This document shows, in pieces, positions 3,687 to 28,737 of a stretch of DNA of 40,649 bases. The stretch covers positions 1 to 40,649 of the IMG/VR virus record IMGVR_UViG_3300045988_031645, one strand, 5' to 3'. The notes below the pieces were generated by a model that saw only the letters and a list, made by a program, of their open reading frames with translations, did not search any database and had not been told where the DNA came from. Each line of letters begins with the position of its first letter. Within the stretch, counting starts at the first letter, position 1. The DNA comes from a virus. The position numbers were made by a program, and so were the translations under genes.

Positions 3687-4306
3687 TGGCGCACCTCCGT
3701 TACGTGTGATGCCCACATGTCTGCGAAATGGAGAAGAAGGTAGAGCGGCGTTTCCTTTCCTGGTATCTGGTACTTGAATGAACCATACAGGCCGTTGTGA
3801 TAGAGGATTGCCTGCTCCTGCTCCGCTGTGAGTGTGATGTATCTCTCCGCGATCATCAGAGACCGGACCTCGTGATCCATGTATGGCAGTTCTTCAGTTG
3901 TGGTATACGGCTTCGCAGTGCTGATCGCTCCGCTCTTCAGAAAATTCGGTACGTAGTTCGGCTTGCCATGGTCGCCCATCTTGCCGAGATCATGCAGCAG
4001 CGGACAAAGAATGATGTCCTTATAGGTCGCTCTGCCTTCCAGCGTTAAGTCCAGCTTCTCCATCGTCACGAGAACGTTCAGCGAGTGCCGCGCCAGCCCG
4101 CCATGTACTGCCAGGTGGTTTGCACCGCTGCACGGAGCCTCGAAGAAGCCCCCGTCCTCCATGTGATAAATGAGCTGATCCATGCCGTCCTTCTCGTTAG
4201 GCTCCACCGCCATACGGAGAAGCTCTACGGTCGTATCGTGCACCTTATCCGGTGACATCATCAGTGGATCAGGAACAGTTACTATCTTCTTTGTATGTAC
4301 TTCCAT
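3683..4306 (-). CDS. HD-domain phosphohydrolase (207 aa)
   Basis: VHGGLARHSLNV and LLHDLGK motifs. Confidence 0.8.
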   Translation of the reverse strand: MEVHTKKIVTVPDPLMMSPDKVHDTTVELLRMAVEPNEKDGMDQLIYHMEDGGFFEAPCSGANHLAVHGGLARHSLNVLVTMEKLDLTLEGRATYKDIILCPLLHDLGKMGDHGKPNYVPNFLKSGAISTAKPYTTTEELPYMDHEVRSLMIAERYITLTAEQEQAILYHNGLYGSFKYQIPGKETPLYLLLHFADMWASHVTEVRQ

Positions 4307-4569
4307 TACGCCCTCCTCGTCTCTACGACCGTCGCTCTCATGCCGTCGATCGCGTCATAATCATCGATGCCTTCTGCGTGAATCATGGTGCCTGAAAGGA
4401 TATCCGCTGCGTTTGAAATCGCTTCGTGCTCGTCCGACGCCTTCACGGTGATCCATACCTTGACTGGAATCTCTACCGTTATGTCATACAGCGTGTCGCC
4501 GTTTCCGGTGTTCCTGCCGTAGTCCTTCGCCTTCCCATACAGTTCCAGCTCATCTTCTGAATAATTCAT
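4306..4569 (-). CDS. Hypothetical protein (87 aa)
   Basis: Track ORF in operon orientation. GGAGG precedes the ATG. Confidence 0.6.
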   Translation of the reverse strand: MNYSEDELELYGKAKDYGRNTGNGDTLYDITVEIPVKVWITVKASDEHEAISNAADILSGTMIHAEGIDDYDAIDGMRATVVETRRA

Positions 4570-8971: not shown

Positions 8972-10312
8972 TCAAGTACTATCTTTGCACTCTGTATACC
9001 GTTCTTTATACTCTGCAACCTTCTTCGCGTATCGTATCATTCTGTAACGTTTATTCTGGCGTCTCTTCCATTTTGTCGGAGGCGTGTATCCGCCTTGTTC
9101 GAAGAACAAAGCGTCGAAGTACATTATCATGTTGACAGTTAGATGGAAGCCTTTGCCTTTATTTTGACTGCATAACCACGAGTTAAATTCAATGTGTATC
9201 TCAGCATATGGCTTTTGGCCGTGAATCATCATTTCTTTCAGTTTGCGCAGTTTTCCGTGTTCTTTAGTTATCGACTTGCGGTTTTGCTTTCGGACCACTC
9301 TGCCAGTTCTGCAAACTGAAAACCTAACTTTTAGGAACTCGAATTGCTCACCAAACTTTATGATACGGCACTTTTTAGGATTCATCGTTATGCCGAGTGA
9401 CGCCGCTCTTTTGACAAATTCATTTTTGATGTGTTCAAGGCGATCTATGTTTTCACATATAATATACCCATCGTCATTATACCGTCCGAATCCGTGAATG
9501 CCAAGTTCGTCTTTTATCCAATGGTCAATAGCCTTGCTAGGATATGCTATTGCTGTTATCTGAGACACCTGGGAGCCAAGGCCAAGTCCTAACTGTTCAT
9601 CAGTTTCTAAGCTAAATGCGTCGATGCACTGGTTATACACGTCACATATAGTTTTTTCCTTGACGGCGTTAAAAACAAGATCTTTTACACTTTTATGCGG
9701 TATATTGTCAAAATAACTATGGAAGTCAAAAACGAAGATACCTCCAGACAACCCGAAGTGTTGGTAATGCCAACGGAGATCGCATGTTAGCCTATTAAGA
9801 GAAAAGTCGGTTCCTTTCCCTGGAAGACACGCTCCATTATTAAAGACCAAGGATGGCTTAATAATAGGTATTAGGCACTCGTTACAAAGTGCCGCCTGCA
9901 CGCACTTTTCTGAAATATGTACGCTTTTTATATGCCTGTGTTTTCCTCTTTCCACGATATCAAATTCGTGAAAGCCTTTTGGATGCCATTCCCGGTTTAG
10001 CAGATCACTCGACTCTTTTTCTGCATTCACAAACAGGTTGGCGCCAAATGACTGTGTGCTTGATTTCCATCTTGATTGCTTACTTGTCTTTTTGTATCCA
10101 GCCACGATGGAAGCTGTGCTGAAAACTATCTCCGGGTTCGCGTATTGGCTTCTAAGCAATTCTTTCCTTTTTTCTCTTTTTTTCAGCCTTCTAAAATATC
10201 TATCTATGTGTCGTTTATCTTTCATATACATGCAGTACGAGCTTATTGTAGGCATAGGTTCTACTCGCTTGCCTTTAGTCATGAAGTGCGAATTACTATG
10301 ACTTCGCGCCAT
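8972..10312 (-). CDS. DGR reverse transcriptase (up to 446 aa; start uncertain)
   Basis: RT motifs NGACLPGKGTD, FDNIPH, LGLGSQVSQ (the DGR-type GxxxSQ) and RYNDDGYII (YxDD). It lies directly downstream of the TR. Confidence 0.85.
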   Translation of the reverse strand: MARSHSNSHFMTKGKRVEPMPTISSYCMYMKDKRHIDRYFRRLKKREKRKELLRSQYANPEIVFSTASIVAGYKKTSKQSRWKSSTQSFGANLFVNAEKESSDLLNREWHPKGFHEFDIVERGKHRHIKSVHISEKCVQAALCNECLIPIIKPSLVFNNGACLPGKGTDFSLNRLTCDLRWHYQHFGLSGGIFVFDFHSYFDNIPHKSVKDLVFNAVKEKTICDVYNQCIDAFSLETDEQLGLGLGSQVSQITAIAYPSKAIDHWIKDELGIHGFGRYNDDGYIICENIDRLEHIKNEFVKRAASLGITMNPKKCRIIKFGEQFEFLKVRFSVCRTGRVVRKQNRKSITKEHGKLRKLKEMMIHGQKPYAEIHIEFNSWLCSQNKGKGFHLTVNMIMYFDALFFEQGGYTPPTKWKRRQNKRYRMIRYAKKVAEYKERYTECKDST

Positions 10313-15161: not shown

Positions 15162-15215
15162 ATCTATCTCCTTTAATATCGCATGGGGCTTCATCGGCCC
15201 CATGCATGCTTAGAC

Positions 15216-16220
15216 TCAGGATGCCTTGTAAGAGCAAGCGGTCTCGATACGAACCATGTAGTCCTCGACCAGACGCTCTGCCGTCTTGGTCGCCTTCCAA
15301 CCGATGGTCGATCTCTGATCGAGCGGATCAGCCGTACCAGCAGAACCCTTCTGCTTCACGATGAGCTGAAGGCCTCCACCCTCGATGTTGGTCGTACCAT
15401 ACGCATTCGCTGCGATGATCAGGGTGGAATATACATCAAACTTGCTGGTGGAACCGCCGCCGACCTTCTCGAAGATCTTCGCCTCGGTGGTCTCTACGAA
15501 ACGCACACCGGCGATCTTACCGATCTCGTTGTTGTACATCTTGTCCGGGGAGGTGTACTTCTGCCACTCAACCCAGTTCGGGTCGGACATCAGGTCGTAA
15601 GCAACATCCGGGTGGATGATGCCCACATAGCTGCCATCGATGGTACGTGCATTCTGGCGCTTCAGCGTTCTCACGGCTGCACGAATTGCCTTGACGGTCA
15701 GTGTATCGGTCTCGAGGAGTGCCGCTCTGCCGGTTCTCTCTGCCTCGTGGTACTGAACATTGGTACCGCCGTTCAGAATCTCACGGGTGACCGTATCCAG
15801 GCTTCGACCAGCCTGAGAACCGATCAGCTGCGTCGCCTCGGTCTTTACGTTGTCGATCGCGGTCAGATCGAGCAGGTCGGTGATGATAACATAACCACCG
15901 TACTGCTTTACCTTCGCAGTGAGTGCAGAGGTATCAAGCGCCTGGCCATCCGGTGTTACACCCTCGACGAGTGCGTCCTGGATCTTCGCCAGCGGCATGA
16001 ACTGTCTGAACTCGATCTCCTTACCGTTGCCGGAAGGAATGTTTCTCTTCTGACCGAACTGATCATGCACAAGCTCTGCTTCTGCAAGGTCAATGAGGTA
16101 ATCAGAGTAATAGGTCTTGATCTCCGGTGCCAGGCTGTTGCCGGACGACGCGGAGGTCGTTGCGTTGATAACGTTATCAAACGCATGAAGGTTTAACTTA
16201 TAAATCTTTGCTGTATGCAT
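15216..16220 (-). CDS. Major capsid protein, HK97-fold, N4 gp56-like (334 aa)
   Basis: It follows the scaffold gene. The sequence YYSDYLIDLAEAELVHDQFGQKRNIPSGNGKEIEFRQF matches my recollection of the N4-gp56-type capsid family. The N-terminal KLNLHAF propeptide motif is present. Confidence 0.75.
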   Translation of the reverse strand: MHTAKIYKLNLHAFDNVINATTSASSGNSLAPEIKTYYSDYLIDLAEAELVHDQFGQKRNIPSGNGKEIEFRQFMPLAKIQDALVEGVTPDGQALDTSALTAKVKQYGGYVIITDLLDLTAIDNVKTEATQLIGSQAGRSLDTVTREILNGGTNVQYHEAERTGRAALLETDTLTVKAIRAAVRTLKRQNARTIDGSYVGIIHPDVAYDLMSDPNWVEWQKYTSPDKMYNNEIGKIAGVRFVETTEAKIFEKVGGGSTSKFDVYSTLIIAANAYGTTNIEGGGLQLIVKQKGSAGTADPLDQRSTIGWKATKTAERLVEDYMVRIETACSYKAS

Positions 16221-17262: not shown

Positions 17263-20200
17263 TCAATACTTCGAAAAGGTGGTCGTCTTGTAGCCTGCGA
17301 TCTCCCACAGCTTCTTCTGCGCATCCGCAGAAAGCCCGCTGCCTCTCAGTACCTTCTTCACGGCCTTCCGCCGGTCGTCACCATCCTTGCCGACCTTCGC
17401 AACGTCCATCTCCTCTTTCAATGAGAAGTAGTCCGCTGCATCATAACCGGCATCCGTCCAGTCCTTCAGCTTCGACGGTTTGCCCGACTCGATGCCCTTC
17501 TTCGAAAGGATCTCGTCCATGGCCTGTTCTCTTGCGAGCTGCTTCAGGTCGCCTGCAATCTTACTCTGCTTGTCCTCGCTGTCGCTTTCTTTAATGCAGT
17601 CGTCCGCCAGATCGTAGTAGTAACTCTCATATGCGTCCTGGTACTGCATGTACTCCTTGCCGCTTAGGTCGTAGGTCTTACCATCCGACTTGATGGAAGT
17701 ATCCATCACGCCAGGTAGAATCTCTGCGTTACCGTTGCTTTCCACGATGTCGTAGATCGCCTTCCGGTCTGCATCTTCTACTCCGTGATCAGACTCCTTC
17801 CGGTATGCCTTCAGTTTGTCGAGTGCAGCGCGACGAATCTCTCGTTCATCCTCCTGGCCCTTCGCAAGGCCGATTGTCTTCTGGTAGTACGACTTCATAT
17901 TACTGTCGAGCGTGCTTTCCAGTGCCTGCTCATTCGTGCCATAGGAGCTGTACATGATATCGGACTCCGATGCCTTATCGTAGATCCAGTTGCTAATGTC
18001 ATTCGAATATACATTATCACGAAGATACGTATTCTTTACACCCATCGTCCAGTCGCGCTTTCCCTTCACTCCCTTTCCGTCGTTGATTGGGAAAAGTGCG
18101 GAAGGATATGACCACATCCAGCCGAGAATGTTCTTGCCAAAATGGTCGGCCTTCTGTGGACTAATGCCGAGATACTTTCCGAGCAGGTACGCCATTTCGC
18201 TTGACTTCTCCGTGTACTGCAGTGCCGGCACCTTACCTTCATTCTGCTTACTTACGATCGGACGGTTGAGGTAATCCTTATTCGCTCTAAGCTGCGACAT
18301 TTCGCCAACAGCACCGAGTGAGCCAAGAAATCCGGTCGTAAAATCATCGTTTGCCGACTGTACTCCATTCGCCACTACATTGACCGGATATTCTGCCAAA
18401 TCAGACACAATACTCGGAAGTGTGCTGTCGGTAAGGTAGCTGTAATATTCGTTGAAAGCGTGGTCGTTATCGCCCACCGTTCTCTCAAGAAGTCTCTCAA
18501 AGAACGACTCAAGCACAGCTACGTTCTGTCCCTTCGGGATGGTGAAATACTTTCCATCGCCTAACGAGATACAGAAGTAGGAGTTTTTCGTGTAGTTCGA
18601 AAGCATATCGAAATCATCCTTGCTTTCCTTATTCCTACGCGACCATGCGACGACGAGTGCAGCCATGATCAGAGACAGCGCTGCGGAGAATGCAATTCTG
18701 CCTGCAATCGCCCGTCCTCTCTCCTTTCCGTTCACCTCAAACCATTTTCCGGTACCGTCTCCGCCGTCTCCACCGTCTCCGGCACCGCCGACGAATTTCA
18801 TCTCCCGAAGATCCTCGGCAGTGAAGTATCGGATCATCTTGTCCGTTGCCTGCACGCCTGCATTGAAGAACGGGATAAACTGGTTGAGCGTTTTTGAATT
18901 GATGCCATTTCTACGGAAGTTTACCGTGATGTCCATCGCAGCATAAAATGCCTTCTGCGGATTCATGCCTGCTTCACGGCACATCTTATAGGTTGCGAAT
19001 CTCGGCCCCATCTCGATCATATCCGAAACAAACATCGCCCATTTGAGCGGATTCATTTCCGGGTGCTCTCTCGTAGAGCTGAGTAACTTTCGCATGTCCT
19101 TTACATAGTCCTTGCTGCCGGACCATACCGGTGCACCCTCACCGCCCATCGCAAGATACTCGGAGAAGAGCGGATCAACACTCTTGCCCCGTGCGTTGTT
19201 GATGTAGTTGAGGTAGGTATCTGCGACACCCTGCAGCATCTTTCCAGGATTCTTCGTCGCCATCGAGTACGTAAGCAGCGTCTGTAGATCTCTCGGCGCA
19301 TTGGAGAAGATCGACCAGATCACATTGTTTCCGGTGATATTTGACGTGATGAATCTTGAAACCGCTCCGAAAGCCGTGATCACCTTGCTGGCGTTCCGGT
19401 AGTCCATGGAAGTGATGGAGCTAAGAAGCAGCGGATCATTGATCTTCCAGAACTCCGGCTTACCGGCTACAAGAATCTTGATCTCACCTCTGTTCGGTTT
19501 CGCCTTTCCAAGCTGGAACTGCGTCATCGTATCATCGATGGAACCAATGACTTCCTGTAAAGCATCCTGCATTTCCGGTGCGATTTCGATACCGGCAATG
19601 TCATGCGTTTCGTTATAGAGACGGTCCTTGATTCCGCGAAGATCGACTTCGACCGGAACCTTCGGATCAGGCATCTTTTCCATGAACAAGGCATCCGCTT
19701 TACTTCTTACGGCTTCTCTTCTGAGCTGAAGCATGACTGCGTTTCTCGCGGCTGCATTCTGGAGCTTCGTGATGTTGTCGATGATGTTATCAACCGGATG
19801 GATCAGATCACGTCCGCTGCCCTTTGCCTTGAACAGCGAATTGCCGCGCTCCTTGAAGCCTGCACGGAAGAACGGTACATAACACGGGTTCTCCTTCTGC
19901 ATCGCCTTATATGCGTCCGCAGAAATCAGCCCCTCGCCAACCGCGTAAGTCCACATGAAGTCGCTTTCAAACTTGTATAGTCTGTCAGCAGCTTCGATGA
20001 ACTCCGGGTGCTCTGCTTCGATCTCCGAGATCCGGTTCTCCATCCACTGCGCGTTGTTCTTGCGGTCATCCGCAAATACACGCTTGCCCTGGGCGATCCA
20101 CTCAATACCATGCTTCACCGCGAGGTACTCACCGAATGCGATATAAACTTCCTTGTCGTTCACATCGATACCGGCGAGCGCATCTTTAAGACCTGGGCCA

Positions 20201-23200
20201 ATATAATTACCGTCCAGATCATAGATGCCCTCTATGATGGTCTGTGCCACTCGTGCATCCGTATAGGCTGCATTCGTCGCATAGGTATATGTATTGGTGC
20301 CGTTTCTGACATCGAACTCGCGGAAGCCATGAACGGAATCTACATTTTCCTGGTACCAGCCATGATACCAGTCGTGAAATTTCTCCATGTTCGTCCGGTA
20401 GTCCGGTCGGCTATCCTCTTTCAGTCTGATCGAGCTCTTCGCGTCGCCAGCGTCCATCGAATAGTATGCGTTCACCTGATCCGCGAAGCCGTTAAACTTC
20501 GCAAGCTCCCCAGGGCTCATCTGCTTGAGGATGTAGTCGGTGAGCTTCGGGAAATCGATACGCGCTGCATCGCGGTTCTGTAAGTAGTATCTTACAAACT
20601 CTGCAAGTCCCTCCTTTAACTTGACCGATGCACTCTTTCCGCTATAGAGATCAGCATTGTCCGGGTTCATGAAAAATGCGGTCTCGATATCCTTGCGCAC
20701 TTCCTTCGGAAGTCGTGCGCTGCCAGTAATGTTGTAGGTCTTGTCGAGCCAGTGACCGAACTCGTGTGAGAATGTCGGAAGGTCGTTCGTGATCTTCGTC
20801 CGAATTCCGCGGTTCCGCTCATTGAACTCGCCCATGTTTCCTTCACCCTTCACATACCGGGTGCCGGATGTTACATTGAATCCCCAGTCATGCGCCGCCT
20901 GACCAATGATATCTGACAGACGCTTCGATGAAGTCTCCGCACTGCCCTCGTTCTTCTTAGCCGTCCAGCGCTCCTCTGGCTTCTCGCCGTCCTCGTTCGG
21001 TGTTGGATTCTTCTTAGAGTTCAGCACTCCGCCGGACTTATCGCCCGTGTCGTCATGCTTCGACATACTATGAAGCACACCATCATCGTCCTCTGTTCCT
21101 GCTGACCTTACATCCATAACAGGATTTGAGCGGATGATTGATCCTAGTGTGTATTCACCTTTAGATCCTGTCGGAATGAAGTATCTCTTTTCGTAGCCGA
21201 TGGTTTCCGAGATGATTCCTTCAACTCTGTTCAATGCCCAGAGATTGCTACCAGTGACTTCGATTCTCCACTCGCCAGACACTTTCCGTCTTCTGATCTT
21301 CCACCTGTTGTCTCTGAGTACAAGTTCCTGATTCTTGTCAAGCACCTCTGACATCAGAGACTTCAATGTGTACTGCTTTTTTGTACGCGCAGTGCCGAGA
21401 TTACGAAGAACAGAGTCGATCTGATCCGGGCTGATAACTCGACCGAGATACTGCTTGCCATCCGTGGTGACGATACGCATGACTCGTGTGTTGTTTTCCG
21501 GTAATTTGCTCCAGATCGGAAGAAGCGTACCAGTAAGCATATGCAGAGTATTTTCCACATATTCCGGCGCTTTCTGCGTTTCCGCCTCCCACGCCTTCTT
21601 CCACTCCTTCTTTGGCAGCTTTTCGGCCTGCTCATTGAACGTTTTTTCTACAAAGTAGCTGCTCTTTCCCCTCACAGGACCATCAAGCCTGTACTTCTGA
21701 ACGACTTCTCCAGTGCGCTTGTCGGTGGTCGTGCTGCCTTTATACACGGCTCTCACGGAACCATCCTTCAGCCGGTACATACCCATGAAGTTCAGATGCG
21801 CATCTTCAACACTTTCATACGGAATAAGCGTAGGTCTGTTATAGACCTTCAGCTGTACGTATTTTGTTTCGGCATGCGTATTCTCATCCTGGTAAACAGG
21901 CTTTTCGTCTGCGACTTCGATCTTATCCGCCTTGTAGGACTCCATGCCACGGTCAAGTGTTCCGTCCTTCATCGCGTTTTCGGTCATTTCTTCGAGAATA
22001 GAATAGAAGTTTTCGAACACTTCGTTCTGGTCCTCTACTCGCAGTGCAAGGATTCGGTTCAGGAACTTCGGCACGTTTCGTAAATCGGTAGATGATTTAT
22101 TAATCAGACCATTCTTATCATAAATCTTGATTCCAAGTTCTCTGATTACTTCATCCGGTGCACTCTCATAGTATTTTGCAAGTGCGTCCTCAGAAATCGG
22201 ATTTTCAAGATTATCCCTTTCACTGAACACGCCGCTTCCTGCGTCTCTCTGGCCCTTCGTGAGTGCACCCATCTGATTAAGGCGCTTCGCAATCGTCGAA
22301 GTGAAACGCTTCTGGCCCATTACATTGGTTGTTACCAGCTTATAAATGGGTGCGCTTGCTTCGTTCGTTCTGTGCGTACGTCCCAATCCCTGAATCGCTG
22401 CATCTGCCTTCCATCCTGCCTGGAGAATGTAGTGAACTCGCTGCTGCTGATTCTTTGCACGCAGGTCTGCATGGTAGCTCTTTCCGGTACCGCCCGCCTC
22501 TGAGAAAATAAGGATTCGTTTTTTGCCGGCCTGGAATGCAGCAGTATCAGCTTCGCCCTTTTCCTTACTCCATTTCTCGACGACTCGTTTCATAGAGCCA
22601 TCTGGCTGCCGATGATAAACGACTCGTCTCGTTCTTCCGGTAACCTCAGCCACGTTATCCACGCCGAATGTATCCAGCAGCATTTCAAGCGGGCCGTCTG
22701 GCACCTGCATCTGCCCGACTTCTTCGATCAGTTTATCTCTTAATGCGATCGCCTTCTTATCAAGTACCGGTTCACCATTGCTATTGGTGACAGGTTTAGA
22801 ATGAGTATTTCCATTCTCGTCCTGGTACTCTTCGTAAGACTGCACAGGGAATGACTTCTGAAGGAAATCGATCAATGTCTCCGACGGTGTGAGGTCAAGG
22901 CCGTCGAGATCACCACCATTTTTGGCGTTATCAGCGATCTTCCGCTTTGCTTCTGCTTCATTGGTATTTGTCAGCTGAATTACAACGCTTTTACCATTGT
23001 CAAGCTGAGTCTGAATATCCGAAAGTACGCTTGGCATGGCCATTGATGTAAGAATCTGATTATAGAATCTCTGTAACGAACCCCAGAACGCGCTTGCCGC
23101 AGCTCCCCTTGCATTACCGTTATTGGAAGCTCCGGTCAATTCGAGTGCCTTATCGATATTTCGAAGCACAACTCGCCATGCATCACTCATCTTGTCATAG

Positions 23201-26200
23201 ATTTCATGCTGAATCGGAGTTAATTCGTGCTCGATCGTGTCATACTGTACACCGTCATAGCTGATGCTTCGTGCCATGTAGTCGCCCAATGACTTCATAT
23301 CTCGTGCAACAAGCTCCATGGCAGCTAAGCCGCCAGCAGACACCTTCGTATAAAAATCGTTGAAATTTGCGAATGAAGTACCAGGCCCCCAAAGTCCGAG
23401 TCTTTCGAGGTATGCGAAGTTCTCAATAGAAGATGCGCCTGTCGCCGTTGCATAGACGATTCTTGCCTTCGGGAAAGCCTCCTGAAGTTTAAGACCCCAT
23501 ATAGCCTTCTGCGTCGGCTCACTGCTTCCACGAGCTTTTTTGATACGCACAGCATTTTTCATGTTGTGTGCCTCATCAAGAACGATTACGCCATCGAAAT
23601 CTTCACCAAGCCAATTTGTAAGACGATCAATGCCATCCTGCTTTCTTGAACCTAACGTATCATAGGTAGCGAAGCAAATACCCTCGCTGGCATTAATGTC
23701 CTTATTCTTAAATTTCTTGAATGAGAATACATCCTTTTTGTCCTGCTCGAGGTCTGCCCAGTCTCTTTGAGCGTCTTCGATCAGGCTTTCTTTTTCACTT
23801 ACCCACACAGCTTTTTTGCGTCCCTGGTTAAAATTATCAAGGATGATCGAGGCGAGCTGAAGTCCCTTTCCTACACCGGTCCCATCACCGATGAAGTATC
23901 CCTTACGTTCTCCGCTCGGTAAAAACTGCTGGTGCGCCTGTCCTGCATATACAATATTCTCAAGCTGTGCGCTTGAAGGCATGCCTCTATCAATAAGCTC
24001 CTGCGGAAGATGCGGCACATACGTTGCGTCTGGCGGTTCTACTGCACCCATGGCTGCGCTCTCTACGAGCTTGCCCGGATGCGCTTTCGCGCCATTAATC
24101 CGCACCTTCTCAGGCACATATGGTGTGAATGTGCTGTTAATATCGACATTGGCTACACGTTCTGCCTTTTCACTGGATGCCGGCTTCTCCAGCTTTACTG
24201 ACTGATCAGCCCTTCCAGAATCGGATTCATTGCCTTTGCTGCTGCTTTCAGATACTCGTCGCTCGGTACTTCTTCCGGTCCCCACTCTACCGTCTTCAGA
24301 TTTTCCAGGCTTTCTGGAATCTCTTTCACTACCGTTTCGGCGTCCTCGTCGTCCACCAGATTCTCCCAGCCCTTCTTCACTGCTTTCAGAAATTCCTCGT
24401 CTGTCGGTGGCATCATCTCCGCTGCCATCATGAGTGCCTGATCCGGATCGTTCAGTTCGTTCAGGAACCACTCCTGATCGTCCCGTCCCAGATTCTGAAA
24501 CAGATTTATCAGATTCCATGTCTGATCTACTAATCGGGTTTCTCTCATTTCTTACTCCTTCCAGGTCGGTCAGCAGCTCGGAAAGCTCCTTATATTCTCC
24601 GGTTAAGGTCTTTCCTTCCTGTGGGCCTACCTTATCAATGACTACCAGCTGGTCGTCGAAAGTAGTTCCATACTTCTGATAGTTCGAACCGTCAATTCGC
24701 ACGTTCGACCGGATGGTGTATTCCCTGCGGAGGTCGTTCCACCATGCTGAGAACGCCGGTGCATCATCTGCCATGCCGCGACCGAGAATAGCGACCAGTC
24801 TGCCGCCTTCCTGTAGACGGTCGAGTGCTTGCTCGATGTGTCGCTTTGCATTGGCCGTCTTGTTGGTCTTCATTCTGCCTGCCGTAGATGAAAAAGGCGG
24901 ATTCATGATAACCACGGTCGGCTGAATATCGTCAGGAAGAACATTATTGATCTGCTCTGCATTCTCGTTGAATGTGCCGTCGAGTCCGAGCTCATTGAGG
25001 AAAGCAAGTCTGCGCTTTGAAAGCTCATTTCCATAAACCTTCGCGCCCCACGCCTTACCCCAAAGTGCAAGACCGCCAATACCGGCGGACGGCTCAAGCA
25101 CAACATCAGCGCTCGTGATATTCGCTAAGCGCGCTGCAGTGTAAGCAATCGTCGGTGGCGTAGAGAACTGCTGGTATGATTCCATCTCCTCGGTTCTCTT
25201 CGTCTGCGTAGGGATATTGCGCATGATGCTCTGGAGCTCTGACAGAGTGTTGAGCGCGTCTTCAAGTGATCTGTTTCCTGCCTTTACGAAATCGGCATTC
25301 ATCAGATACTTGTTGATGCCCAGCTCCATACCGTCATAAGCATCCTTTACGGAATATGTGCCTTCTGCCATCGTTCCGCCATAAGCATTATTCGCAACAT
25401 CGAAAAGCCAGTTTGCCGTAAACGACTGGCCGGACGCAACCTTCTCTGCAACTCTGTCCGCGATGGATGACTGCGGATTGCTGTTTGCGACCGGCTTTTT
25501 CTCCGGCGCTGCAGGACTGGTTTTTGCCGCTGGCGCTGGCTTTGATGCTTCCTTCGGTGCTTCCTTCGGCTCTTCCTTCTTTTCCTCATTCTTCTGCATG
25601 CGGATGTTGTACTGATTATATCCCAGTTTCCACATAGCGTCAGCAGCATCCGGTCCGACCGGCATCTTGTAGAACTCAGCGAAGTTGCTGTCGTTCGATA
25701 ATCTCGAATACGGCTCGCCATTTAAGCCCGCCTGGTAAACCTGTGACATGAAATTGTCCCACTTATAGACGGTCGATGTATCGACAGACGGCCACTGCTC
25801 AGAGCCAAGCGAGAAGAAATCGATGTATGTTCGTCTCTCTGCTTCCTTCGTCCCGAAACGCTTGTACGCTCTGTCCGTTAACGCATCGGCCACATCCGGC
25901 TGAAGAATTCCACCAGAAACAAAGCTGTCCGCTTCGGCAGCCGCTTTCTCGTTCCTCGTGAGGCCATTATTTTCCGCAAATTTAGTAAGATCATCGATAA
26001 CCGCGTCACGTGACTCATACGGTTTTGTGACATAGCGAAGAGCCCGACCATCGACGATCACGCCGCCGAACTTGTCGTTTTTCGTGTCACGAAGGCGGCC
26101 AACATAGCCATCCTCGTCTGCGGTTATTTCGTACTCGATCTGATCAGCCGTAAACTTTCCGTTGCTCTTGAGCTTATCATGAAGCTGATTCGTCGTGAGC

Positions 26201-28656
26201 TTCCTGTCGGAATTTCCGACAGGTTCGTTTGTTTCTGGCTCCGGTTCCTGCTGCGACTCGCTGATCTCCTGTGCCGGCGCACTCTCATCAGAACCTACGT
26301 GCTTTCCTTCGAAAATATCTACGATCTTCTGTAAATCTTCCGGCGACGCATGATTAATCGCATCCTGGTTGATGATACCGCCCTGATTAAACGCCCGGTC
26401 GATAATATCGCCCTGAGACTTCGGCTCGTCTTCGCTCTTTGGTTCCTCAATCAGATTCTGACTCTCCTCAGCCGTCGGCTCCTGGATCAAGTCCTGGCTG
26501 TTCTCTGTCTCCTGTGCGACCGGCGCTGCATCCTCCGTATTGATCGCTTCTACGGCTGCCTGTGTCGCTTCCTTCGCTGCATCCGGTGTAGAATCCGCCG
26601 TGTTCTGCTCTGAGCGCTCCTTCAGCGCATCTACTGCCTCATTCACGGCATCATGCGTAACGTCCGCCACATTCTTTGTGTCGTCTGCCGTTTTCGTCCG
26701 CTTCTTTCTCGTCTTCTTCAACTTATCGACAGCCGCATTGGTGGCGGCCTTCGTGTCAGATCCGCTGCCATCTGTCGTTACCGTAATATTGTTATCTGTC
26801 GAGATGTCGTCAGACACATCGGCGTCACTAAAAACCGGTGCTTCCGACGCCGGTGCCTGTGTGTCCATATTCTGTGCAGGAGCTTCACTGAATTCAGTGT
26901 AGTCGCGCATATCATTAAACAGCGTATTATCGTTTACGAACTGACCACTCTCGAACTGGCTCTGATACTCACGCTCCGCGTTTCTTCTCTGCTGCCAGTC
27001 GTCTGTCCGGTGCTCGATCTCATTTCCTGCGAGGTGCAGCACATCACCACCCACGTTCATGAGCATCGAATTCGCCGCGCCAAGCGCTGCTGAATACCAG
27101 AACTCAGGGTCACTTAAAGAAAGGCCCTTGACCGGATCAATGTTTCCATTCTCATCCTTACCATCACCAAGGATCACATTCTTTGCTATTCCCTGCGTCC
27201 AGTACTGTAAGCCCTCCTGTGCAGCTTCACCGAGTGCATTCGCCCCGTGCCTGCCGAAACGGTACAGAAGTCCTCTGCCGATGTCAGACTTCACCGCCTT
27301 GTTGATTCCGTCTGCCGCTGCCTTTGCGATATTCGTATTGCCGAGTGCTTTCGCGATTCTTCCGCCTCCGAATGCCTCGATACCACCAAGCAGCTTCTCG
27401 GTGTAGTATTCAGACGCCGCTTCCTCACCAGCATATAAAGCGGACCGAAGATTGCTATGCCCATCATTGATCGCTTCCTGGTATGAATGGCCGCCCTGCG
27501 AAGCACCAAACAGCATACTAGACAGTGTCTGAATACCTTTACTGCCTACACCTGCGGCACCACCTACAGCGCTTCCGAGTGCGGCCGCTCCAACCATGTT
27601 ACCGGTTGAGGATGCAATATCTTGCAGTACGCCTTCGACATTTCCGGCTTTCTCCCGTCGAATCTCTGTCTCGTAGTCATTCACAGACTTTGCGCGCTTC
27701 TTATTGTCGAGCGTCGCCCACTGCGCAATCTTCTGAAGGCCCTCGCCACTGTTCGTAACGCCTCCGACGAACTGATTAGCCACTCTACCGGCTGCCACAG
27801 CATTCGCACGGTTTCCCTCTACGTTCTGCTTCGCCACGCGGCGGTTGATGTCGTCCATGAGCTTAGACCGGTACTCTTCCGCTGCGTCTCTGCCCTGCGA
27901 GTCATACAGATGGTTGTACATGGTCTTCTGACCCGGCGTCATTTCAGAGTACTGCCGGATCTTCTCCGGGATAGCAGCTCTATTCTTTCCGTACTTCTCC
28001 GCTTCCACGTCTGCCATCTTCAGAGGATTCCCACCAGCGTTTCTGAGCGCGTTGATCGGTGCTTTTACCGCATCGACGATTGCCTTGTTGATGCCCTTAT
28101 TCGCAAAATCCGTCATGGCCACATGATGCTTCGTCGCCTGTGCAGTTTGGTTGTCGCTGTTCTTCGCGACATAATCTACGAGCGACTTTGAGACCGTCGT
28201 CTGCGTGTTTCCGGTTCTCGTCGCTGTGCTGGGCGTGGCATTACTCGGTGTAGCATTGCTCGGCGTCGAGCGGTTCTTGAGCTCGTTCAGCGCATCGTTT
28301 CGGATGTCATCACTCGTCACTGTCTGCTTCTTCGGCGTCGGACGAGTATATCCATAGCGCTTGCCCACATCATCCACCAGGTTCCGTGAAACAGTGCTCG
28401 CAGATCCTGTGTTGTAGGTCTTCTGCCGCTGCTGCATGCTGGTCTTCCGCTGTGAGCGCTCATGCGAAGACTGAATGCTGCGCTGCGTCGCAGAGTTCAG
28501 AGAATAATTGCCGTCCGTATCCTTCTCGTAGTAGTTCTCACGATAAAGCTGCTGCGTCGGCTTGTTGGCGATCTTATTGCTTTCGTCTCGGTGCTCAGAC
28601 TGACGAAGCAGTTCGTACTTCGTCTCTCTGTTTGTGATTTTTGATCTCTTTGCCAT
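17263..28656 (-). CDS. Giant polyvalent protein (3,797 aa): Gly-rich N-terminal region, N6-adenine-type methyltransferase, Strawberry-notch/SNF2-like helicase, HExxH metallopeptidase motif, C-terminal region with one TM segment
   Basis: One uninterrupted frame. The start is moved to ATG 28656 (AAGGAG upstream). Motif coordinates are listed in the module features and in the findings. Confidence 0.9.
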   Translation of the reverse strand: MAKRSKITNRETKYELLRQSEHRDESNKIANKPTQQLYRENYYEKDTDGNYSLNSATQRSIQSSHERSQRKTSMQQRQKTYNTGSASTVSRNLVDDVGKRYGYTRPTPKKQTVTSDDIRNDALNELKNRSTPSNATPSNATPSTATRTGNTQTTVSKSLVDYVAKNSDNQTAQATKHHVAMTDFANKGINKAIVDAVKAPINALRNAGGNPLKMADVEAEKYGKNRAAIPEKIRQYSEMTPGQKTMYNHLYDSQGRDAAEEYRSKLMDDINRRVAKQNVEGNRANAVAAGRVANQFVGGVTNSGEGLQKIAQWATLDNKKRAKSVNDYETEIRREKAGNVEGVLQDIASSTGNMVGAAALGSAVGGAAGVGSKGIQTLSSMLFGASQGGHSYQEAINDGHSNLRSALYAGEEAASEYYTEKLLGGIEAFGGGRIAKALGNTNIAKAAADGINKAVKSDIGRGLLYRFGRHGANALGEAAQEGLQYWTQGIAKNVILGDGKDENGNIDPVKGLSLSDPEFWYSAALGAANSMLMNVGGDVLHLAGNEIEHRTDDWQQRRNAEREYQSQFESGQFVNDNTLFNDMRDYTEFSEAPAQNMDTQAPASEAPVFSDADVSDDISTDNNITVTTDGSGSDTKAATNAAVDKLKKTRKKRTKTADDTKNVADVTHDAVNEAVDALKERSEQNTADSTPDAAKEATQAAVEAINTEDAAPVAQETENSQDLIQEPTAEESQNLIEEPKSEDEPKSQGDIIDRAFNQGGIINQDAINHASPEDLQKIVDIFEGKHVGSDESAPAQEISESQQEPEPETNEPVGNSDRKLTTNQLHDKLKSNGKFTADQIEYEITADEDGYVGRLRDTKNDKFGGVIVDGRALRYVTKPYESRDAVIDDLTKFAENNGLTRNEKAAAEADSFVSGGILQPDVADALTDRAYKRFGTKEAERRTYIDFFSLGSEQWPSVDTSTVYKWDNFMSQVYQAGLNGEPYSRLSNDSNFAEFYKMPVGPDAADAMWKLGYNQYNIRMQKNEEKKEEPKEAPKEASKPAPAAKTSPAAPEKKPVANSNPQSSIADRVAEKVASGQSFTANWLFDVANNAYGGTMAEGTYSVKDAYDGMELGINKYLMNADFVKAGNRSLEDALNTLSELQSIMRNIPTQTKRTEEMESYQQFSTPPTIAYTAARLANITSADVVLEPSAGIGGLALWGKAWGAKVYGNELSKRRLAFLNELGLDGTFNENAEQINNVLPDDIQPTVVIMNPPFSSTAGRMKTNKTANAKRHIEQALDRLQEGGRLVAILGRGMADDAPAFSAWWNDLRREYTIRSNVRIDGSNYQKYGTTFDDQLVVIDKVGPQEGKTLTGEYKELSELLTDLEGVRNERNPISRSDMESDKSVSESGTGRSGVVPERTERSGSGTHDGSGDDATDRRGISESSEEGLGESGGRRGRRNGSERDSRKPGKSEDGRVGTGRSTERRVSESSSKGNESDSGRADQSVKLEKPASSEKAERVANVDINSTFTPYVPEKVRINGAKAHPGKLVESAAMGAVEPPDATYVPHLPQELIDRGMPSSAQLENIVYAGQAHQQFLPSGERKGYFIGDGTGVGKGLQLASIILDNFNQGRKKAVWVSEKESLIEDAQRDWADLEQDKKDVFSFKKFKNKDINASEGICFATYDTLGSRKQDGIDRLTNWLGEDFDGVIVLDEAHNMKNAVRIKKARGSSEPTQKAIWGLKLQEAFPKARIVYATATGASSIENFAYLERLGLWGPGTSFANFNDFYTKVSAGGLAAMELVARDMKSLGDYMARSISYDGVQYDTIEHELTPIQHEIYDKMSDAWRVVLRNIDKALELTGASNNGNARGAAASAFWGSLQRFYNQILTSMAMPSVLSDIQTQLDNGKSVVIQLTNTNEAEAKRKIADNAKNGGDLDGLDLTPSETLIDFLQKSFPVQSYEEYQDENGNTHSKPVTNSNGEPVLDKKAIALRDKLIEEVGQMQVPDGPLEMLLDTFGVDNVAEVTGRTRRVVYHRQPDGSMKRVVEKWSKEKGEADTAAFQAGKKRILIFSEAGGTGKSYHADLRAKNQQQRVHYILQAGWKADAAIQGLGRTHRTNEASAPIYKLVTTNVMGQKRFTSTIAKRLNQMGALTKGQRDAGSGVFSERDNLENPISEDALAKYYESAPDEVIRELGIKIYDKNGLINKSSTDLRNVPKFLNRILALRVEDQNEVFENFYSILEEMTENAMKDGTLDRGMESYKADKIEVADEKPVYQDENTHAETKYVQLKVYNRPTLIPYESVEDAHLNFMGMYRLKDGSVRAVYKGSTTTDKRTGEVVQKYRLDGPVRGKSSYFVEKTFNEQAEKLPKKEWKKAWEAETQKAPEYVENTLHMLTGTLLPIWSKLPENNTRVMRIVTTDGKQYLGRVISPDQIDSVLRNLGTARTKKQYTLKSLMSEVLDKNQELVLRDNRWKIRRRKVSGEWRIEVTGSNLWALNRVEGIISETIGYEKRYFIPTGSKGEYTLGSIIRSNPVMDVRSAGTEDDDGVLHSMSKHDDTGDKSGGVLNSKKNPTPNEDGEKPEERWTAKKNEGSAETSSKRLSDIIGQAAHDWGFNVTSGTRYVKGEGNMGEFNERNRGIRTKITNDLPTFSHEFGHWLDKTYNITGSARLPKEVRKDIETAFFMNPDNADLYSGKSASVKLKEGLAEFVRYYLQNRDAARIDFPKLTDYILKQMSPGELAKFNGFADQVNAYYSMDAGDAKSSIRLKEDSRPDYRTNMEKFHDWYHGWYQENVDSVHGFREFDVRNGTNTYTYATNAAYTDARVAQTIIEGIYDLDGNYIGPGLKDALAGIDVNDKEVYIAFGEYLAVKHGIEWIAQGKRVFADDRKNNAQWMENRISEIEAEHPEFIEAADRLYKFESDFMWTYAVGEGLISADAYKAMQKENPCYVPFFRAGFKERGNSLFKAKGSGRDLIHPVDNIIDNITKLQNAAARNAVMLQLRREAVRSKADALFMEKMPDPKVPVEVDLRGIKDRLYNETHDIAGIEIAPEMQDALQEVIGSIDDTMTQFQLGKAKPNRGEIKILVAGKPEFWKINDPLLLSSITSMDYRNASKVITAFGAVSRFITSNITGNNVIWSIFSNAPRDLQTLLTYSMATKNPGKMLQGVADTYLNYINNARGKSVDPLFSEYLAMGGEGAPVWSGSKDYVKDMRKLLSSTREHPEMNPLKWAMFVSDMIEMGPRFATYKMCREAGMNPQKAFYAAMDITVNFRRNGINSKTLNQFIPFFNAGVQATDKMIRYFTAEDLREMKFVGGAGDGGDGGDGTGKWFEVNGKERGRAIAGRIAFSAALSLIMAALVVAWSRRNKESKDDFDMLSNYTKNSYFCISLGDGKYFTIPKGQNVAVLESFFERLLERTVGDNDHAFNEYYSYLTDSTLPSIVSDLAEYPVNVVANGVQSANDDFTTGFLGSLGAVGEMSQLRANKDYLNRPIVSKQNEGKVPALQYTEKSSEMAYLLGKYLGISPQKADHFGKNILGWMWSYPSALFPINDGKGVKGKRDWTMGVKNTYLRDNVYSNDISNWIYDKASESDIMYSSYGTNEQALESTLDSNMKSYYQKTIGLAKGQEDEREIRRAALDKLKAYRKESDHGVEDADRKAIYDIVESNGNAEILPGVMDTSIKSDGKTYDLSGKEYMQYQDAYESYYYDLADDCIKESDSEDKQSKIAGDLKQLAREQAMDEILSKKGIESGKPSKLKDWTDAGYDAADYFSLKEEMDVAKVGKDGDDRRKAVKKVLRGSGLSADAQKKLWEIAGYKTTTFSKY
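20752..20766 (-). other. HEFGH (HExxH) zinc-metallopeptidase motif in the giant protein
   Basis: Context TFSHEFGHWLDKTYN. This is a motif only; the surrounding fold is not identified. Confidence 0.5.
21940..24060 (-). other. Strawberry-notch-like superfamily-2 helicase module of the giant protein
   Basis: GDGTGVGKG (23863..23889), VLDEAHNMKN (DEAH at 23566..23577), FSEAGGTGKSYHAD, GLGRTHRTNE and FLNRILALRVEDQNEVF. Confidence 0.75.
24195..24548 (-). CDS. Overprinted 117-aa acidic protein in the +1 frame of the giant gene
   Basis: AAGGAG lies 6 nt before ATG 24548, and the frame is closed by TAA two codons upstream and by TAA at 24195. The sequence is protein-like with native-looking codon usage (12 of 14 Leu are CTG). 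The giant frame is low-complexity over the same bases. Confidence 0.55.
   Translation of the reverse strand: MRETRLVDQTWNLINLFQNLGRDDQEWFLNELNDPDQALMMAAEMMPPTDEEFLKAVKKGWENLVDDEDAETVVKEIPESLENLKTVEWGPEEVPSDEYLKAAAKAMNPILEGLISQ
24620..25185 (-). other. Methyltransferase module of the giant protein
   Basis: SAM motif VLEPSAGIGGL (about 25066..25100) and catalytic VVIMNPPFSS (NPPF at 24891..24902). Confidence 0.8.
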
Positions 28657-28737
28657 CACGTTCTCCTTAAAATAAAGTGAAGTTGCTACCGTCAATTATG
28701 AGTGAAGGCGTCGAAAAACGTCACCGACCTATAAAAA

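What the first reader, a model, noticed from the sequence alone, without database searches (positions are those of the whole stretch)
24195..24548. Gene within a gene: a 117-codon acidic ORF with its own Shine-Dalgarno is overprinted on the methyltransferase-helicase linker of the giant gene
The ORF is on the same strand in the +1 register: ATG 24548 to TAA 24195. Four observations support it.
(1) The context is ctGGAAGGAGtaagaaATG. AAGGAG lies 6 nt upstream, and the frame is closed by TAA just two codons before the ATG, so the ORF is used from its first possible start.
(2) The product reads like a folded helical protein with 27 Asp/Glu against 10 Lys/Arg by my count: MRETRLVDQTWNLINLFQNLGRDDQEWFLNELNDPDQALMMAAEMMPPTDEEFLKAVKKGWENLVDDEDAETVVKEIPESLENLKTVEWGPEEVPSDEYLKAAAKAMNPILEGLISQ. 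Over exactly the same bases the giant frame collapses into S/G/R/E low complexity (...SDKSVSESGTGRSGVVPERTERSGSGTHDGSGDDATDRRGISESSEEGLGESGGRRGRRNGSERDSRKPGKSEDGRVGTGRSTERRVSESSSKGNESDSGRADQS...).
(3) Codon choice follows the embedded frame. Twelve of its 14 Leu are CTG, and it uses CAG, CCG and GAC as elsewhere in the phage. The giant frame here is pushed into TCT, TCA, GGA, CGA, AGA and AGT codons that look uncommon in the rest of the gene.
(4) All 16 T-ending codons of the embedded frame are followed by a C-starting codon. This is what keeps TAA, TAG and TGA out of the giant frame, so both frames appear to be maintained.
Other same-strand alternate-frame ORFs in the gene (21363..21635 and 25347..25721) show none of these properties.
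Inferred options: a small gene captured and overprinted when separate methyltransferase and helicase genes fused; an independently translated acidic DNA-mimic or anti-restriction factor or chaperone; or a frameshift-accessed exit that yields an N-terminal-region/methyltransferase isoform lacking the helicase, truncated near this point.
Basis: partly seen in the sequence, partly recalled or inferred. Interest (0 to 1): 0.85.

Follow-up and report, generated by a model that had tools for sequence, protein, structure and literature searches.

The report
Hidden gene inside giant gene's linker
A real, unannotated 117-codon gene for a small acidic helical protein is nested out of frame inside the spacer between the methyltransferase and helicase parts of a giant phage protein, and the same hidden gene sits at the same spot in related phages and conjugative plasmids.

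Summary
The ORF at 24195..24548 (- strand, +1 register of the 3810-codon polyvalent gene) has AAGGAG 6 nt upstream and a stop two codons before its ATG. It encodes 27 D/E against 10 K/R.

From the window alone, openness is unremarkable (P about 0.2-0.28 given the hydrophilic linker). Codon usage is not: the embedded frame scores like a true frame and the giant frame like an off-frame.

Comparative evidence:
- All 59 related loci with the MTase-end motif, in phages, plasmids and bacterial genomes, keep a Shine-Dalgarno core, an ATG at the same nucleotide and a 109-142-codon +1 ORF.
- Substitutions follow the +1 frame. In the window's clade the dN/dS-like ratio (omega) is about 0.3 for the embedded frame and about 1.2 for the giant frame. 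Giant-frame synonymous variability falls from 49% to 17%.
- The giant frame is nevertheless kept open (P<0.001 by chance).
- A free-standing homologue (51% identity) lies next to a type I hsdR gene.
- AlphaFold2 gives a confident six-helix bundle (pLDDT 94) with no match in PDB or BFVD. Pfam, PHROGs and NCBIfam have no model.

Function is inferred only. The most likely role is a cis-encoded partner (regulator, chaperone or DNA mimic) of the methyltransferase-helicase module.

The parts
24198..24548 (-). Coding sequence of the embedded +1-frame gene: 117 aa, 13.5 kDa, pI 4.08, predicted six-helix bundle.
   Evidence: Searches give the translation and composition. One search gives omega about 0.31 in this frame. 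One search gives AF2 pLDDT 94.1 and pTM 0.87. Searches give homologues, including a free-standing one.
24195..24197 (-). TAA stop of the embedded gene, formed by giant codons GTA AAG.
   Evidence: The stop position is kept in the window clade.
24555..24562 (-). Shine-Dalgarno GGAAGGAG. It is built from the giant-frame codons for L-E-G-V of the motif LEGVRNER and ends 6 nt upstream of the ATG.
   Evidence: An SD core lies 4-13 nt upstream of the conserved ATG in 59 of 59 loci. It persists when the giant-frame amino acids differ (LKGV, LQEV, VEAI, LESI).
24546..24548 (-). Start codon ATG, made from the last two bases of giant codon AAT (Asn) and the first base of GAG (Glu).
   Evidence: The N/D/H codon ends in T in 59 of 59 loci, including genomes with 61-65% G+C.
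24552..24554 (-). TAA stop in the +1 frame, two codons before the ATG. The ATG is therefore the first possible start.
24195..24549 (-). Giant-frame reading of the same bases: a hydrophilic G/R/S/D/E spacer between the adenine methyltransferase and the Strawberry-notch helicase. It is kept free of stops but is otherwise unconstrained.
   Evidence: One search shows the family-wide low-complexity linker. One search gives omega about 1.18. One search gives P(open | embedded protein) < 0.001. One search gives CAI-like 0.673, below every other window of the gene.
17263..28695 (-). Host gene: a 3810-codon phage polyvalent protein. It carries an NPPF adenine MTase, AAA_34 and Helicase_C_4 (Strawberry-notch SF2 ATPase), and LPD38.
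   Evidence: Background comes from PMC5512222.

Best explanation
Window 24195..24548 (- strand) is a genuine protein-coding gene nested in the +1 frame of the interdomain linker of the phage's giant polyvalent protein.

Shown:
- Ribosome-binding signals are conserved at nucleotide level. These are a GGAGG-type SD and an ATG, built from the codons of the methyltransferase-end motif L-E-G-[VI]-R-N-[DE]-R.
- The +1 frame carries the amino-acid-level purifying selection and the genome-typical codon usage.
- The giant frame over the same bases is only kept open, and it evolves as an unconstrained hydrophilic spacer.
- The product is a 13.5-kDa, pI-4.1, all-helical protein family. It also exists as a stand-alone gene.

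Inferred:
- The protein is translated independently from the giant mRNA by internal initiation.
- It works in trans as a partner of the EcoKI-like methyltransferase / SF2-translocase module. The likeliest role is an acidic regulator or chaperone, possibly a nucleic-acid mimic. Such a partner would keep the methyltransferase-helicase inactive or transfer-competent in the producing cell before it is packaged or transferred.
- The linker is probably the evolutionarily younger reading frame, created when the methyltransferase and helicase reading frames were joined across a pre-existing small gene.
For: Conservation of the ORF:
- All 10 IMG/VR relatives (47-92% identity of the giant protein) keep a 115-137-codon +1 ORF from the same ATG; one (L015) runs off the contig end.
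- In genome and metagenome scans, 59 of 59 loci with the motif have the ATG, an SD core and a 109-142-codon ORF.
- Short-linker subfamilies (Rhodobacterales, Pyrinomonadaceae) lack the motif and lack a consistently placed +1 ORF. They serve as a negative control.
- P(+1 open) given the giant amino-acid sequence is 0.009-0.28 per lineage, so about 1e-7 jointly.

Selection:
- In the Methylococcales-type set, variable sites by +1 codon position 1/2/3 are 63/47/99. Amino-acid identity is 0.54-0.89 in +1 against 0.28-0.73 in frame 0.
- In the window clade, 63 variant alleles were classified. 32 are synonymous in the embedded frame and nonsynonymous in the giant frame, against 13.2 expected (p = 2e-7). 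Omega-like values are 0.31 (embedded) and 1.18 (giant).
- Giant position-3 variability is 17% in the embedded region against 49% in the flanks.
- In all-against-all phmmer, the +1 products give 252 significant pairs and one cluster of 30. The frame-0 linkers give 121 pairs and a largest cluster of 9.
- P(giant frame open | embedded protein) is < 0.001 in 9 of 10 lineages tested (0.035 in L038), so the giant frame is also maintained.

The protein:
- P0162 is a free-standing homologue with 51% identity and BLASTP E = 5e-40. It has its own SD, and both alternative frames are full of stops.
- AF2 gives pLDDT 94.1 and pTM 0.87.
- All 48 unique products are acidic (median pI 4.36) with 33% hydrophobic residues, against 13% for the linker reading.

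Link to the module:
- The ORF tracks the MTase-Sno linker in phage virion-type polyvalent proteins, in a tra-region polyvalent protein of a Methylomonas plasmid, and in other bacterial genomic loci.
- The free-standing copy lies directly after hsdR, another SF2 motor that works with an EcoKI-type methyltransferase (PMC5512222).
Against: - There is no expression evidence: no peptides, ribosome profiling or transcript data.
- The function is inferred only from linkage, charge and one genomic neighbourhood.
- Neither Foldseek (PDB, BFVD) nor Pfam, PHROGs, NCBIfam or PADLOC gives any functional lead.
- The window clade's product is not detectably homologous by profile comparison to the largest +1 family (hhalign probability 2.8%). 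Homology across all clades therefore rests on position, shared start signals and a short C-terminal helix motif.
- In the window clade, embedded-frame position 2 varies slightly more than position 1 (20 against 13 sites), so the constraint is moderate.
- One relative, L005, has the ATG mutated and a stop at codon 6. Its giant frame is broken as well and its coverage is 2.2x.
- Only one free-standing homologue was found.
Confidence: 0.88

Rival explanations
1. The embedded protein is an independent DNA-mimic anti-restriction factor of the Ocr/ArdA type. It would bind host type I restriction-modification complexes and would not act on the phage's own methyltransferase-helicase.
For: - Its size (117 aa), charge (pI 4.08, net -17) and all-helical prediction resemble T7 Ocr. 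The Ocr properties come from my own knowledge.
- The host protein belongs to the DarB-like anti-restriction dyad (PMC5512222).
- All 48 unique products are acidic.
Against: - Foldseek against the PDB, which should include solved anti-restriction/DNA-mimic structures such as Ocr and ArdA (my assumption; the library's contents were not checked), gave no match better than E = 1.6 and TM 0.34.
- The PADLOC and Pfam scans found nothing.
- A free-standing anti-restriction gene would not be expected directly downstream of a cellular hsdR inside a defence island.
- Strict retention in every long-linker MTase-Sno gene suggests coupling to that module rather than a stand-alone weapon.
Confidence: 0.2
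2. The +1 ORF is reached by programmed frameshifting from the giant frame. This would yield a truncated N-terminal/methyltransferase isoform with an acidic tail and no helicase, rather than a separate protein.
For: - SD-like sequences can stimulate frameshifting (prfB, dnaX; from my own knowledge).
- A rare AGA or CGA Arg codon precedes the junction in many loci.
Against: - A frameshift needs no ATG, yet the ATG is kept in 59 of 59 loci, through a synonymous T in the N/D/H codon, at the SD spacing typical of initiation.
- In the window a +1 TAA lies two codons before the ATG, which leaves almost no room to shift.
- The conserved bases contain no slippery heptamer.
- The free-standing homologue starts at the same Met: MNETKMVD against MRETRLVD.
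Confidence: 0.04
3. The ORF is a non-functional by-product. A hydrophilic low-complexity linker has few T's at codon position 2, so its +1 frame is open by chance and only looks protein-like.
For: - For the window alone, P(open) is 0.20-0.28.
- The register-matched antisense frame is also open.
Against: - Joint openness across independent lineages has a probability of about 1e-7.
- The ATG and SD are conserved in 59 of 59 loci.
- Omega is 0.31 in +1 against 1.18 in the giant frame.
- The +1 products are more conserved than the linker reading.
- Codon usage is that of a true frame.
- A free-standing homologue exists.
- AF2 gives pLDDT 94.
Confidence: 0.03

Closest known systems
Rz1 embedded in Rz (phage lambda spanin genes)
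   Same: A same-strand gene lies wholly inside another gene in the +1 frame, with its own ribosome-binding site. Both products are thought to serve one process. It is a phage example. (From my own knowledge.)
   Different: Rz1 is a short lipoprotein that overlaps a functional part of Rz. Here the overlapped stretch of the host protein is a spacer with no amino-acid constraint, and the arrangement extends to plasmids and bacterial genomic loci across phyla.
comS inside srfAB (Bacillus subtilis)
   Same: A small out-of-frame ORF with its own start is hidden in a giant multidomain gene and is missed by routine annotation. (From my own knowledge.)
   Different: ComS is 46 aa and restricted to one lineage. 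The present ORF is 109-142 codons and is conserved in 26 sequence clusters from Firmicutes-type phages to Proteobacteria and Planctomycetes.
Overprinted genes of small viruses (e.g. phiX174 B in A, E in D)
   Same: Two frames are maintained on the same bases. One reading is ordered and the other is disordered and compositionally odd. Synonymous variation is suppressed in the host frame.
   Different: In classical overprinting the disordered frame is usually the new accessory protein. Here the disordered reading is the linker of the large protein, and the ordered, codon-adapted reading is the small embedded gene. This suggests the linker frame is the newcomer (inference).
DarB-type methylase-helicase dyad of polyvalent proteins (Iyer et al. 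2017, PMC5512222)
   Same: The host gene has an EcoKI/TaqI-like NPPF adenine methyltransferase fused to a SWI2/SNF2-clade (Strawberry-notch) ATPase in a giant phage protein with LPD38.
   Different: The main text of that paper contains no hit for 'overlapping' or 'linker', and its one hit for 'reading frame' concerns separate small ORFs near a locus. The embedded gene is unannotated in the RefSeq plasmid record examined.
Ocr / ArdA DNA mimics, and small acidic cis-encoded chaperones such as VirE1 or type III secretion chaperones
   Same: They are small, strongly acidic and helical. They are encoded next to, or here inside, the gene of a DNA-handling protein that is delivered to another cell. 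The properties of the comparators come from my own knowledge.
   Different: No sequence or fold similarity to any of them was found. The resemblance is in physical character only.

Membership tests
Functional same-strand overlapping (gene-within-gene) protein-coding gene | The ORF is intact at the homologous position in diverged relatives. | tested here: met
   59 of 59 motif-bearing loci have ORFs of 109-142 codons, in 26 clusters at 50% identity or more. Joint chance openness is about 1e-7.
Functional same-strand overlapping (gene-within-gene) protein-coding gene | Translation start signals are conserved beyond what the host-frame amino acids require. | tested here: met
   The ATG is kept through a synonymous T in the N/D/H codon in 59 of 59 loci, including 61-65% G+C genomes. 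The SD core is kept although the host residues vary (LEGV, LKGV, LQEV, VEAI, LESI).
Functional same-strand overlapping (gene-within-gene) protein-coding gene | There is purifying selection in the alternative frame and suppressed synonymous change in the host frame. | tested here: met
   Omega-like values are 0.31 (embedded) and 1.18 (giant). Giant-frame synonymous-site variability is 17% against 49% in the flanks, p = 1e-10. The position pattern is 63/47/99 in a second clade.
Functional same-strand overlapping (gene-within-gene) protein-coding gene | The host frame is maintained open across the overlap. | tested here: met
   P(giant frame open | embedded protein, genome codon usage) is < 0.001 in 9 of 10 lineages tested.
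Functional same-strand overlapping (gene-within-gene) protein-coding gene | The product is detected (peptides or a ribosome initiation peak). | not testable with these tools
   No expression data were available.
Ocr/ArdA-type DNA-mimic anti-restriction proteins | A highly acidic small protein. | tested here: met
   pI 4.08, with 27 D/E against 10 K/R. The family median pI is 4.36.
Ocr/ArdA-type DNA-mimic anti-restriction proteins | Sequence or fold similarity to a known mimic. | tested here: not met
   The best Foldseek PDB match has E = 1.6 and the best BFVD match E = 0.66. The Pfam, PHROGs, NCBIfam, PADLOC and PDB sequence searches found nothing meaningful.
Ocr/ArdA-type DNA-mimic anti-restriction proteins | Binds and inhibits type I restriction-modification enzymes. 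| not testable with these tools
   This needs biochemistry or an in vivo restriction assay.
Programmed ribosomal frameshift product | A conserved slippery site at the frame junction, with no need for a start codon. | tested here: not met
   The conserved bases are GGAGG-N(7-9)-ATG with no slippery heptamer. The window has a +1 stop two codons before the ATG. The free-standing homologue starts at the same Met.
Phage-type polyvalent protein with methylase-helicase dyad (host gene) | An NPPF adenine MTase fused N-terminal to a SWI2/SNF2-clade ATPase in a giant multidomain protein with LPD domains. | tested here: met
   Pfam finds AAA_34 (8e-113), Helicase_C_4 (1e-80) and LPD38 (4e-19). The NPPFS motif is present. 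The definition comes from PMC5512222.

The most novel reading that the evidence does not exclude
The methyltransferase-to-Strawberry-notch-helicase 'linker' of polyvalent proteins in phages, conjugative plasmids and bacterial genomic loci is the shadow of an ancient, universally retained, unannotated gene. That gene encodes a small acidic protein with an unmatched predicted fold. The protein is an obligatory third subunit (regulator, chaperone or nucleic-acid mimic) of methyltransferase / SF2-translocase machines. It has relatives working with type I restriction enzymes. The fusion protein arose by reading through this gene in another frame.
Probability: 0.4. Interest if true: 0.9.

Novelty: new variant of a known kind. 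Interest (0 to 1): 0.85.

Why it matters
Long same-strand overlapping genes that are conserved across bacterial phyla and across phages and plasmids are very rare. Annotation pipelines exclude them by design. In the databases searched here, this ORF is called only on contig fragments where the giant gene is cut.

The case shows that an apparently disordered low-complexity linker can be the by-product of a hidden folded protein encoded in another frame. It adds an uncharacterised component to the DarB-like anti-restriction methylase-helicase module that mobile elements inject into new hosts. It also gives a concrete, testable candidate for how that module is controlled or chaperoned.

More generally, it offers a clean natural example for studying how two frames share sequence: one frame carries all the amino-acid constraint and the other only a no-stop constraint.

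Tried and rejected
- blastn and tblastn of the region and of the embedded protein against GenBank phages found nothing. tblastn of the free-standing homologue against plasmids also found nothing.
- I considered that the window's linker is a doubly frameshifted version of an ancestral in-frame domain. I rejected this because distant homologues all read a G/R/S/D/E linker in the giant frame and the +1 ORF is bounded by stops.
- I considered chance openness due to the hydrophilic linker. It is adequate for the window alone but is rejected by the comparative data.
- Profile-profile comparison did not unite the window clade with the main +1 family.
- A profile search of 5.8 billion proteins with all 48 products returned only 27 embedded copies on short contigs and no annotated relatives.
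- The first AF2 run, with 4 near-identical sequences, was mediocre (pLDDT 69.5). Adding three diverged homologues raised it to 94.1.
- Foldseek against PDB (two runs) and BFVD gave nothing.
- P0016/L134 was examined as a possible unfused arrangement. The contig ends too early and looks chimeric, so it is uninformative.
- L005 looked like a counter-example, with a mutated ATG and an early stop. Its giant frame is also broken by a 76-nt net deletion and its coverage is 2.2x, so it does not discriminate.
Full report
**1. The observation.**
The giant ORF is window 17263..28695 on the - strand, 3810 codons. Pfam identifies it as a phage-type polyvalent protein. The matches are AAA_34 (aa 1538-1835) and Helicase_C_4 (aa 2002-2252), which together form the Strawberry-notch SF2 ATPase, and LPD38. 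An NPPFS adenine-methyltransferase motif lies upstream.

- It runs from ATG 24548 to TAA 24195 and is 117 codons long.
- Its offset is +1 relative to the giant frame.
- The context is GGAAGGAG-taagaa-ATG, with a TAA two codons upstream.
- It has 27 D/E against 10 K/R, giving pI 4.08.
- 12 of 14 Leu are CTG.
- All 16 T-ending codons are followed by C.

**2. What the single sequence can and cannot show.**
A +1-frame stop requires T at the second position of a giant-frame codon. A hydrophilic linker is therefore automatically poor in +1 stops. Given the giant amino-acid sequence, the +1 frame stays open in 28% of synonymous resamplings and 20% of synonymous permutations. Openness in the window alone is not evidence.

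The + strand ORF 24177..24533 is the register-matched antisense of the embedded frame. It is open because that frame avoids TTA, CTA and TCA.

Codon usage is informative:

| Reading | CAI-like score |
|---|---|
| Embedded frame | 0.808 |
| Giant frame, same bases | 0.673 |
| Other in-frame 117-codon windows of the giant gene | 0.792 +/- 0.032 (minimum 0.720) |
| Off-frame windows | 0.625 +/- 0.033 |

Within the linker, the +1 frame looks like the coding frame and the giant frame looks like an off-frame.

**3. The giant-frame linker is family-wide.**
Homologues at 42-49% identity all have a 100-150-residue G/R/S/D/E/P-rich stretch. It lies between the methyltransferase end motif (LEG[IV]RN[DE]R) and the helicase start (HPGxLVxSAAM). 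The window's low-complexity reading is therefore the homologous reading, not a local collapse or a double frameshift.

**4. The +1 ORF is conserved far beyond the window.**
- Database proteins matching the embedded product were first found only on short metagenome contigs that are 88-96% identical to the window. Gene callers picked the +1 ORF there because the giant gene was cut.
- All ten IMG/VR relatives, with 47-92% identity of the giant protein, have a 115-137-codon +1 ORF that starts at the same ATG; one (L015) runs off the contig end.
- Scans of bacterial genomes and metagenomes added about 100 loci.
- Every one of the 59 loci with the motif L[EKQ]x[IV][RK][NDH][DEAG] has the ATG. The N/D/H codon always ends in T, even at 61-65% G+C.
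- All 59 also have an SD core 4-13 nt upstream and a +1 ORF of 109-142 codons. They fall into 26 clusters at 50% identity or more.
- The SD survives changes of the host amino acids (LEGV, LKGV, LQEV, VEAI, LESI). This points to conservation at nucleotide level.
- Per-lineage chance openness is 0.009-0.28, which gives about 1e-7 jointly.
- Subfamilies with short linkers (Rhodobacterales, spacing about 213 aa; Pyrinomonadaceae, about 160 aa) lack the motif. Their +1 runs are no better than their +2 runs. This is a natural negative control.

**5. Selection acts on the +1 frame.**
In a Methylococcales-type set of eight loci, variable sites by +1 codon position 1/2/3 are 63/47/99. Pairwise amino-acid identity is 0.54-0.89 in +1 against 0.28-0.73 in the giant frame.

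In the window's own clade (WIN, L001-L006, L096-L099), variable sites by giant codon position are as follows:

| Region | Position 1 | Position 2 | Position 3 |
|---|---|---|---|
| Methyltransferase flank | 18 | 8 | 120 |
| Embedded region | 30 | 13 | 20 |
| Downstream flank | 8 | 9 | 84 |

- Giant-frame synonymous-position variability falls from 49% in the flanks to 17% in the embedded region (Fisher p = 1e-10).
- The 63 variant alleles of the embedded region were classified, with L005 excluded. 32 are synonymous in the embedded frame but nonsynonymous in the giant frame, against 13.2 expected (p = 2e-7).
- The omega-like ratio is 0.31 for the embedded frame and 1.18 for the giant frame. The flanks give 0.06-0.08.
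- In all-against-all phmmer, the +1 products give 252 significant pairs and one cluster of 30. The linker readings give 121 pairs and a largest cluster of 9.

**6. The giant frame is still maintained.**
Given the embedded protein and genome codon usage, the giant frame is open in fewer than 1 in 1000 resamplings in nine of ten lineages tested. Both frames are kept. One is kept for its amino-acid sequence. The other is kept only for the absence of stops.

**7. The product is a real protein family.**
- An exhaustive HMM search of 1.84 billion representative proteins found three diverged homologues.
- Two of them (P0163, P0164) and a further IMG/VR relative (L131) are embedded in the same way.
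- P0162 has 51% identity to the window product, with BLASTP E = 5e-40. It is a free-standing gene with its own SD. Both alternative frames are full of stops, and its G+C equals that of its neighbours.
- P0162 is closer to the window clade (50-53%) than the embedded P0163 and P0164 are (37-40%). This suggests an escape from the embedded state.
- With the seven-sequence alignment, AlphaFold2 predicts a six-helix bundle at pLDDT 94.1 and pTM 0.87.
- All 48 unique products are acidic (median pI 4.36). They have 33% hydrophobic residues, against 13% for the linker reading.

**8. What it is not, or cannot be shown to be.**
- Foldseek against PDB and BFVD gave nothing better than E = 0.66 and TM 0.37.
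- Pfam, PHROGs, NCBIfam, PADLOC and PDB sequence searches gave no meaningful hit.
- The window clade is not joined to the largest +1 family by hhalign (probability 2.8%). Only a C-terminal 'AAA..IL..L' helix is shared in the overall alignment.
- The polyvalent-protein paper by Iyer et al. 2017 describes the methylase-helicase dyad. A term search of its main text found no mention of an overlapping ORF.
- Literature searches found no report of such a gene.
- In a RefSeq Methylomonas plasmid the ORF lies unannotated inside a 9.7-kb 'strawberry notch-like' CDS in the tra region.

**9. Mechanism.**
*Shown.* There is a conserved internal SD and ATG. Amino-acid constraint falls on the +1 frame. Only a no-stop constraint falls on the host frame. 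The product is a foldable acidic helical protein that can also exist as an independent gene.

*Inferred.* Internal initiation on the giant mRNA yields a separate 13.5-kDa protein.

The ORF has been retained wherever the long-linker methyltransferase-Sno module occurs. This holds in phage virion-type polyvalent proteins, in a plasmid tra-region polyvalent protein and in other bacterial genomic loci. In addition, the single free-standing copy lies immediately after a type I hsdR, which is an SF2 motor that works with an EcoKI-type methyltransferase. For these reasons I consider a trans-acting partner of the methyltransferase / SF2-translocase module the most likely role. It could be a regulator, a chaperone or a nucleic-acid mimic that masks the module in the producing cell.

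An independent Ocr-like anti-restriction function is the main rival. A frameshift-accessed isoform is unlikely, because an ATG is universally conserved and the free-standing homologue starts at the same Met. A chance by-product is excluded by the comparative data.

By the usual criteria the embedded gene looks like the older frame. The ordered, codon-adapted frame is taken as ancestral, and the disordered, compositionally odd frame as derived. The linker would then be the newcomer, created when the methyltransferase and helicase frames were joined across the small gene. This is an inference, not a demonstration.

**10. Verdict.**
I rate it a new variant of a known kind. Nested +1 genes such as Rz1 in Rz and comS in srfAB are known. 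What is new here is a hidden, widely conserved protein family that occupies the interdomain linker of giant anti-restriction proteins. Its function remains to be tested.

Noticed in passing
window 25347..25721 (- strand): A second same-strand alternative-frame ORF (124 aa, Arg-rich) overlaps another K/E/P/A-rich linker of the giant protein. Its translation is 96% and 91% identical in L008 and L007 but only 54% identical in L006. Yet L006 is the closer relative over the methyltransferase and linker region (92% against 72%). The giant gene therefore appears to be mosaic or recombinant. The ORF itself looks like a by-product.
   Followed up: partly
window 24177..24533 (+ strand): A 118-codon antisense ORF lies in exact codon register with the embedded gene. 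It is open because the embedded frame avoids TTA, CTA and TCA, and its single TTA gives the only antisense stop. This is a typical shadow of a real coding frame.
   Followed up: yes
window 28654..28695 (- strand): The mechanical ORF list starts the giant gene at TTG 28695. An ATG 13 codons downstream (MAKRSK...) is the more plausible start.
   Followed up: no
L127:53-5368: This is a defence-island context in a 39% G+C contig. The order is HEPN AbiU2, type I HsdR, the free-standing homologue of the embedded protein (4090-4446), then PDC-S14 (GIY-YIG + DUF4357). It is the only free-standing copy found.
   Followed up: partly
L132:7929-17639 (Methylomonas sp. LL1 plasmid NZ_CP064652.1): A 9.7-kb 'strawberry notch-like' polyvalent CDS lies in the conjugative transfer region, after traJ, traI, the coupling protein, traF, topoisomerase III and traD. 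It contains an unannotated embedded ORF at locus 9001-9342.
   Followed up: partly
L005:2075-2135: This low-coverage (2.2x) relative has a 76-nt net deletion that breaks the giant frame just upstream of the embedded start. It also has ATG changed to AGG and a stop at embedded codon 6. It is either a defective variant or an assembly error.
   Followed up: partly
window 15183..16220: Two long ORFs on opposite strands cover almost the same bases: 15183..16196 on + (337 aa) and 15216..16220 on - (334 aa). One is presumably a shadow of the other.
   Followed up: no
L134:3992-5344: On this contig, bacterial shikimate-pathway genes are followed by a stand-alone methyltransferase. Its giant frame stops inside the linker while the +1 ORF stays open to the contig end. 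It may be chimeric or may be an unfused arrangement. The contig is too short to tell.
   Followed up: partly
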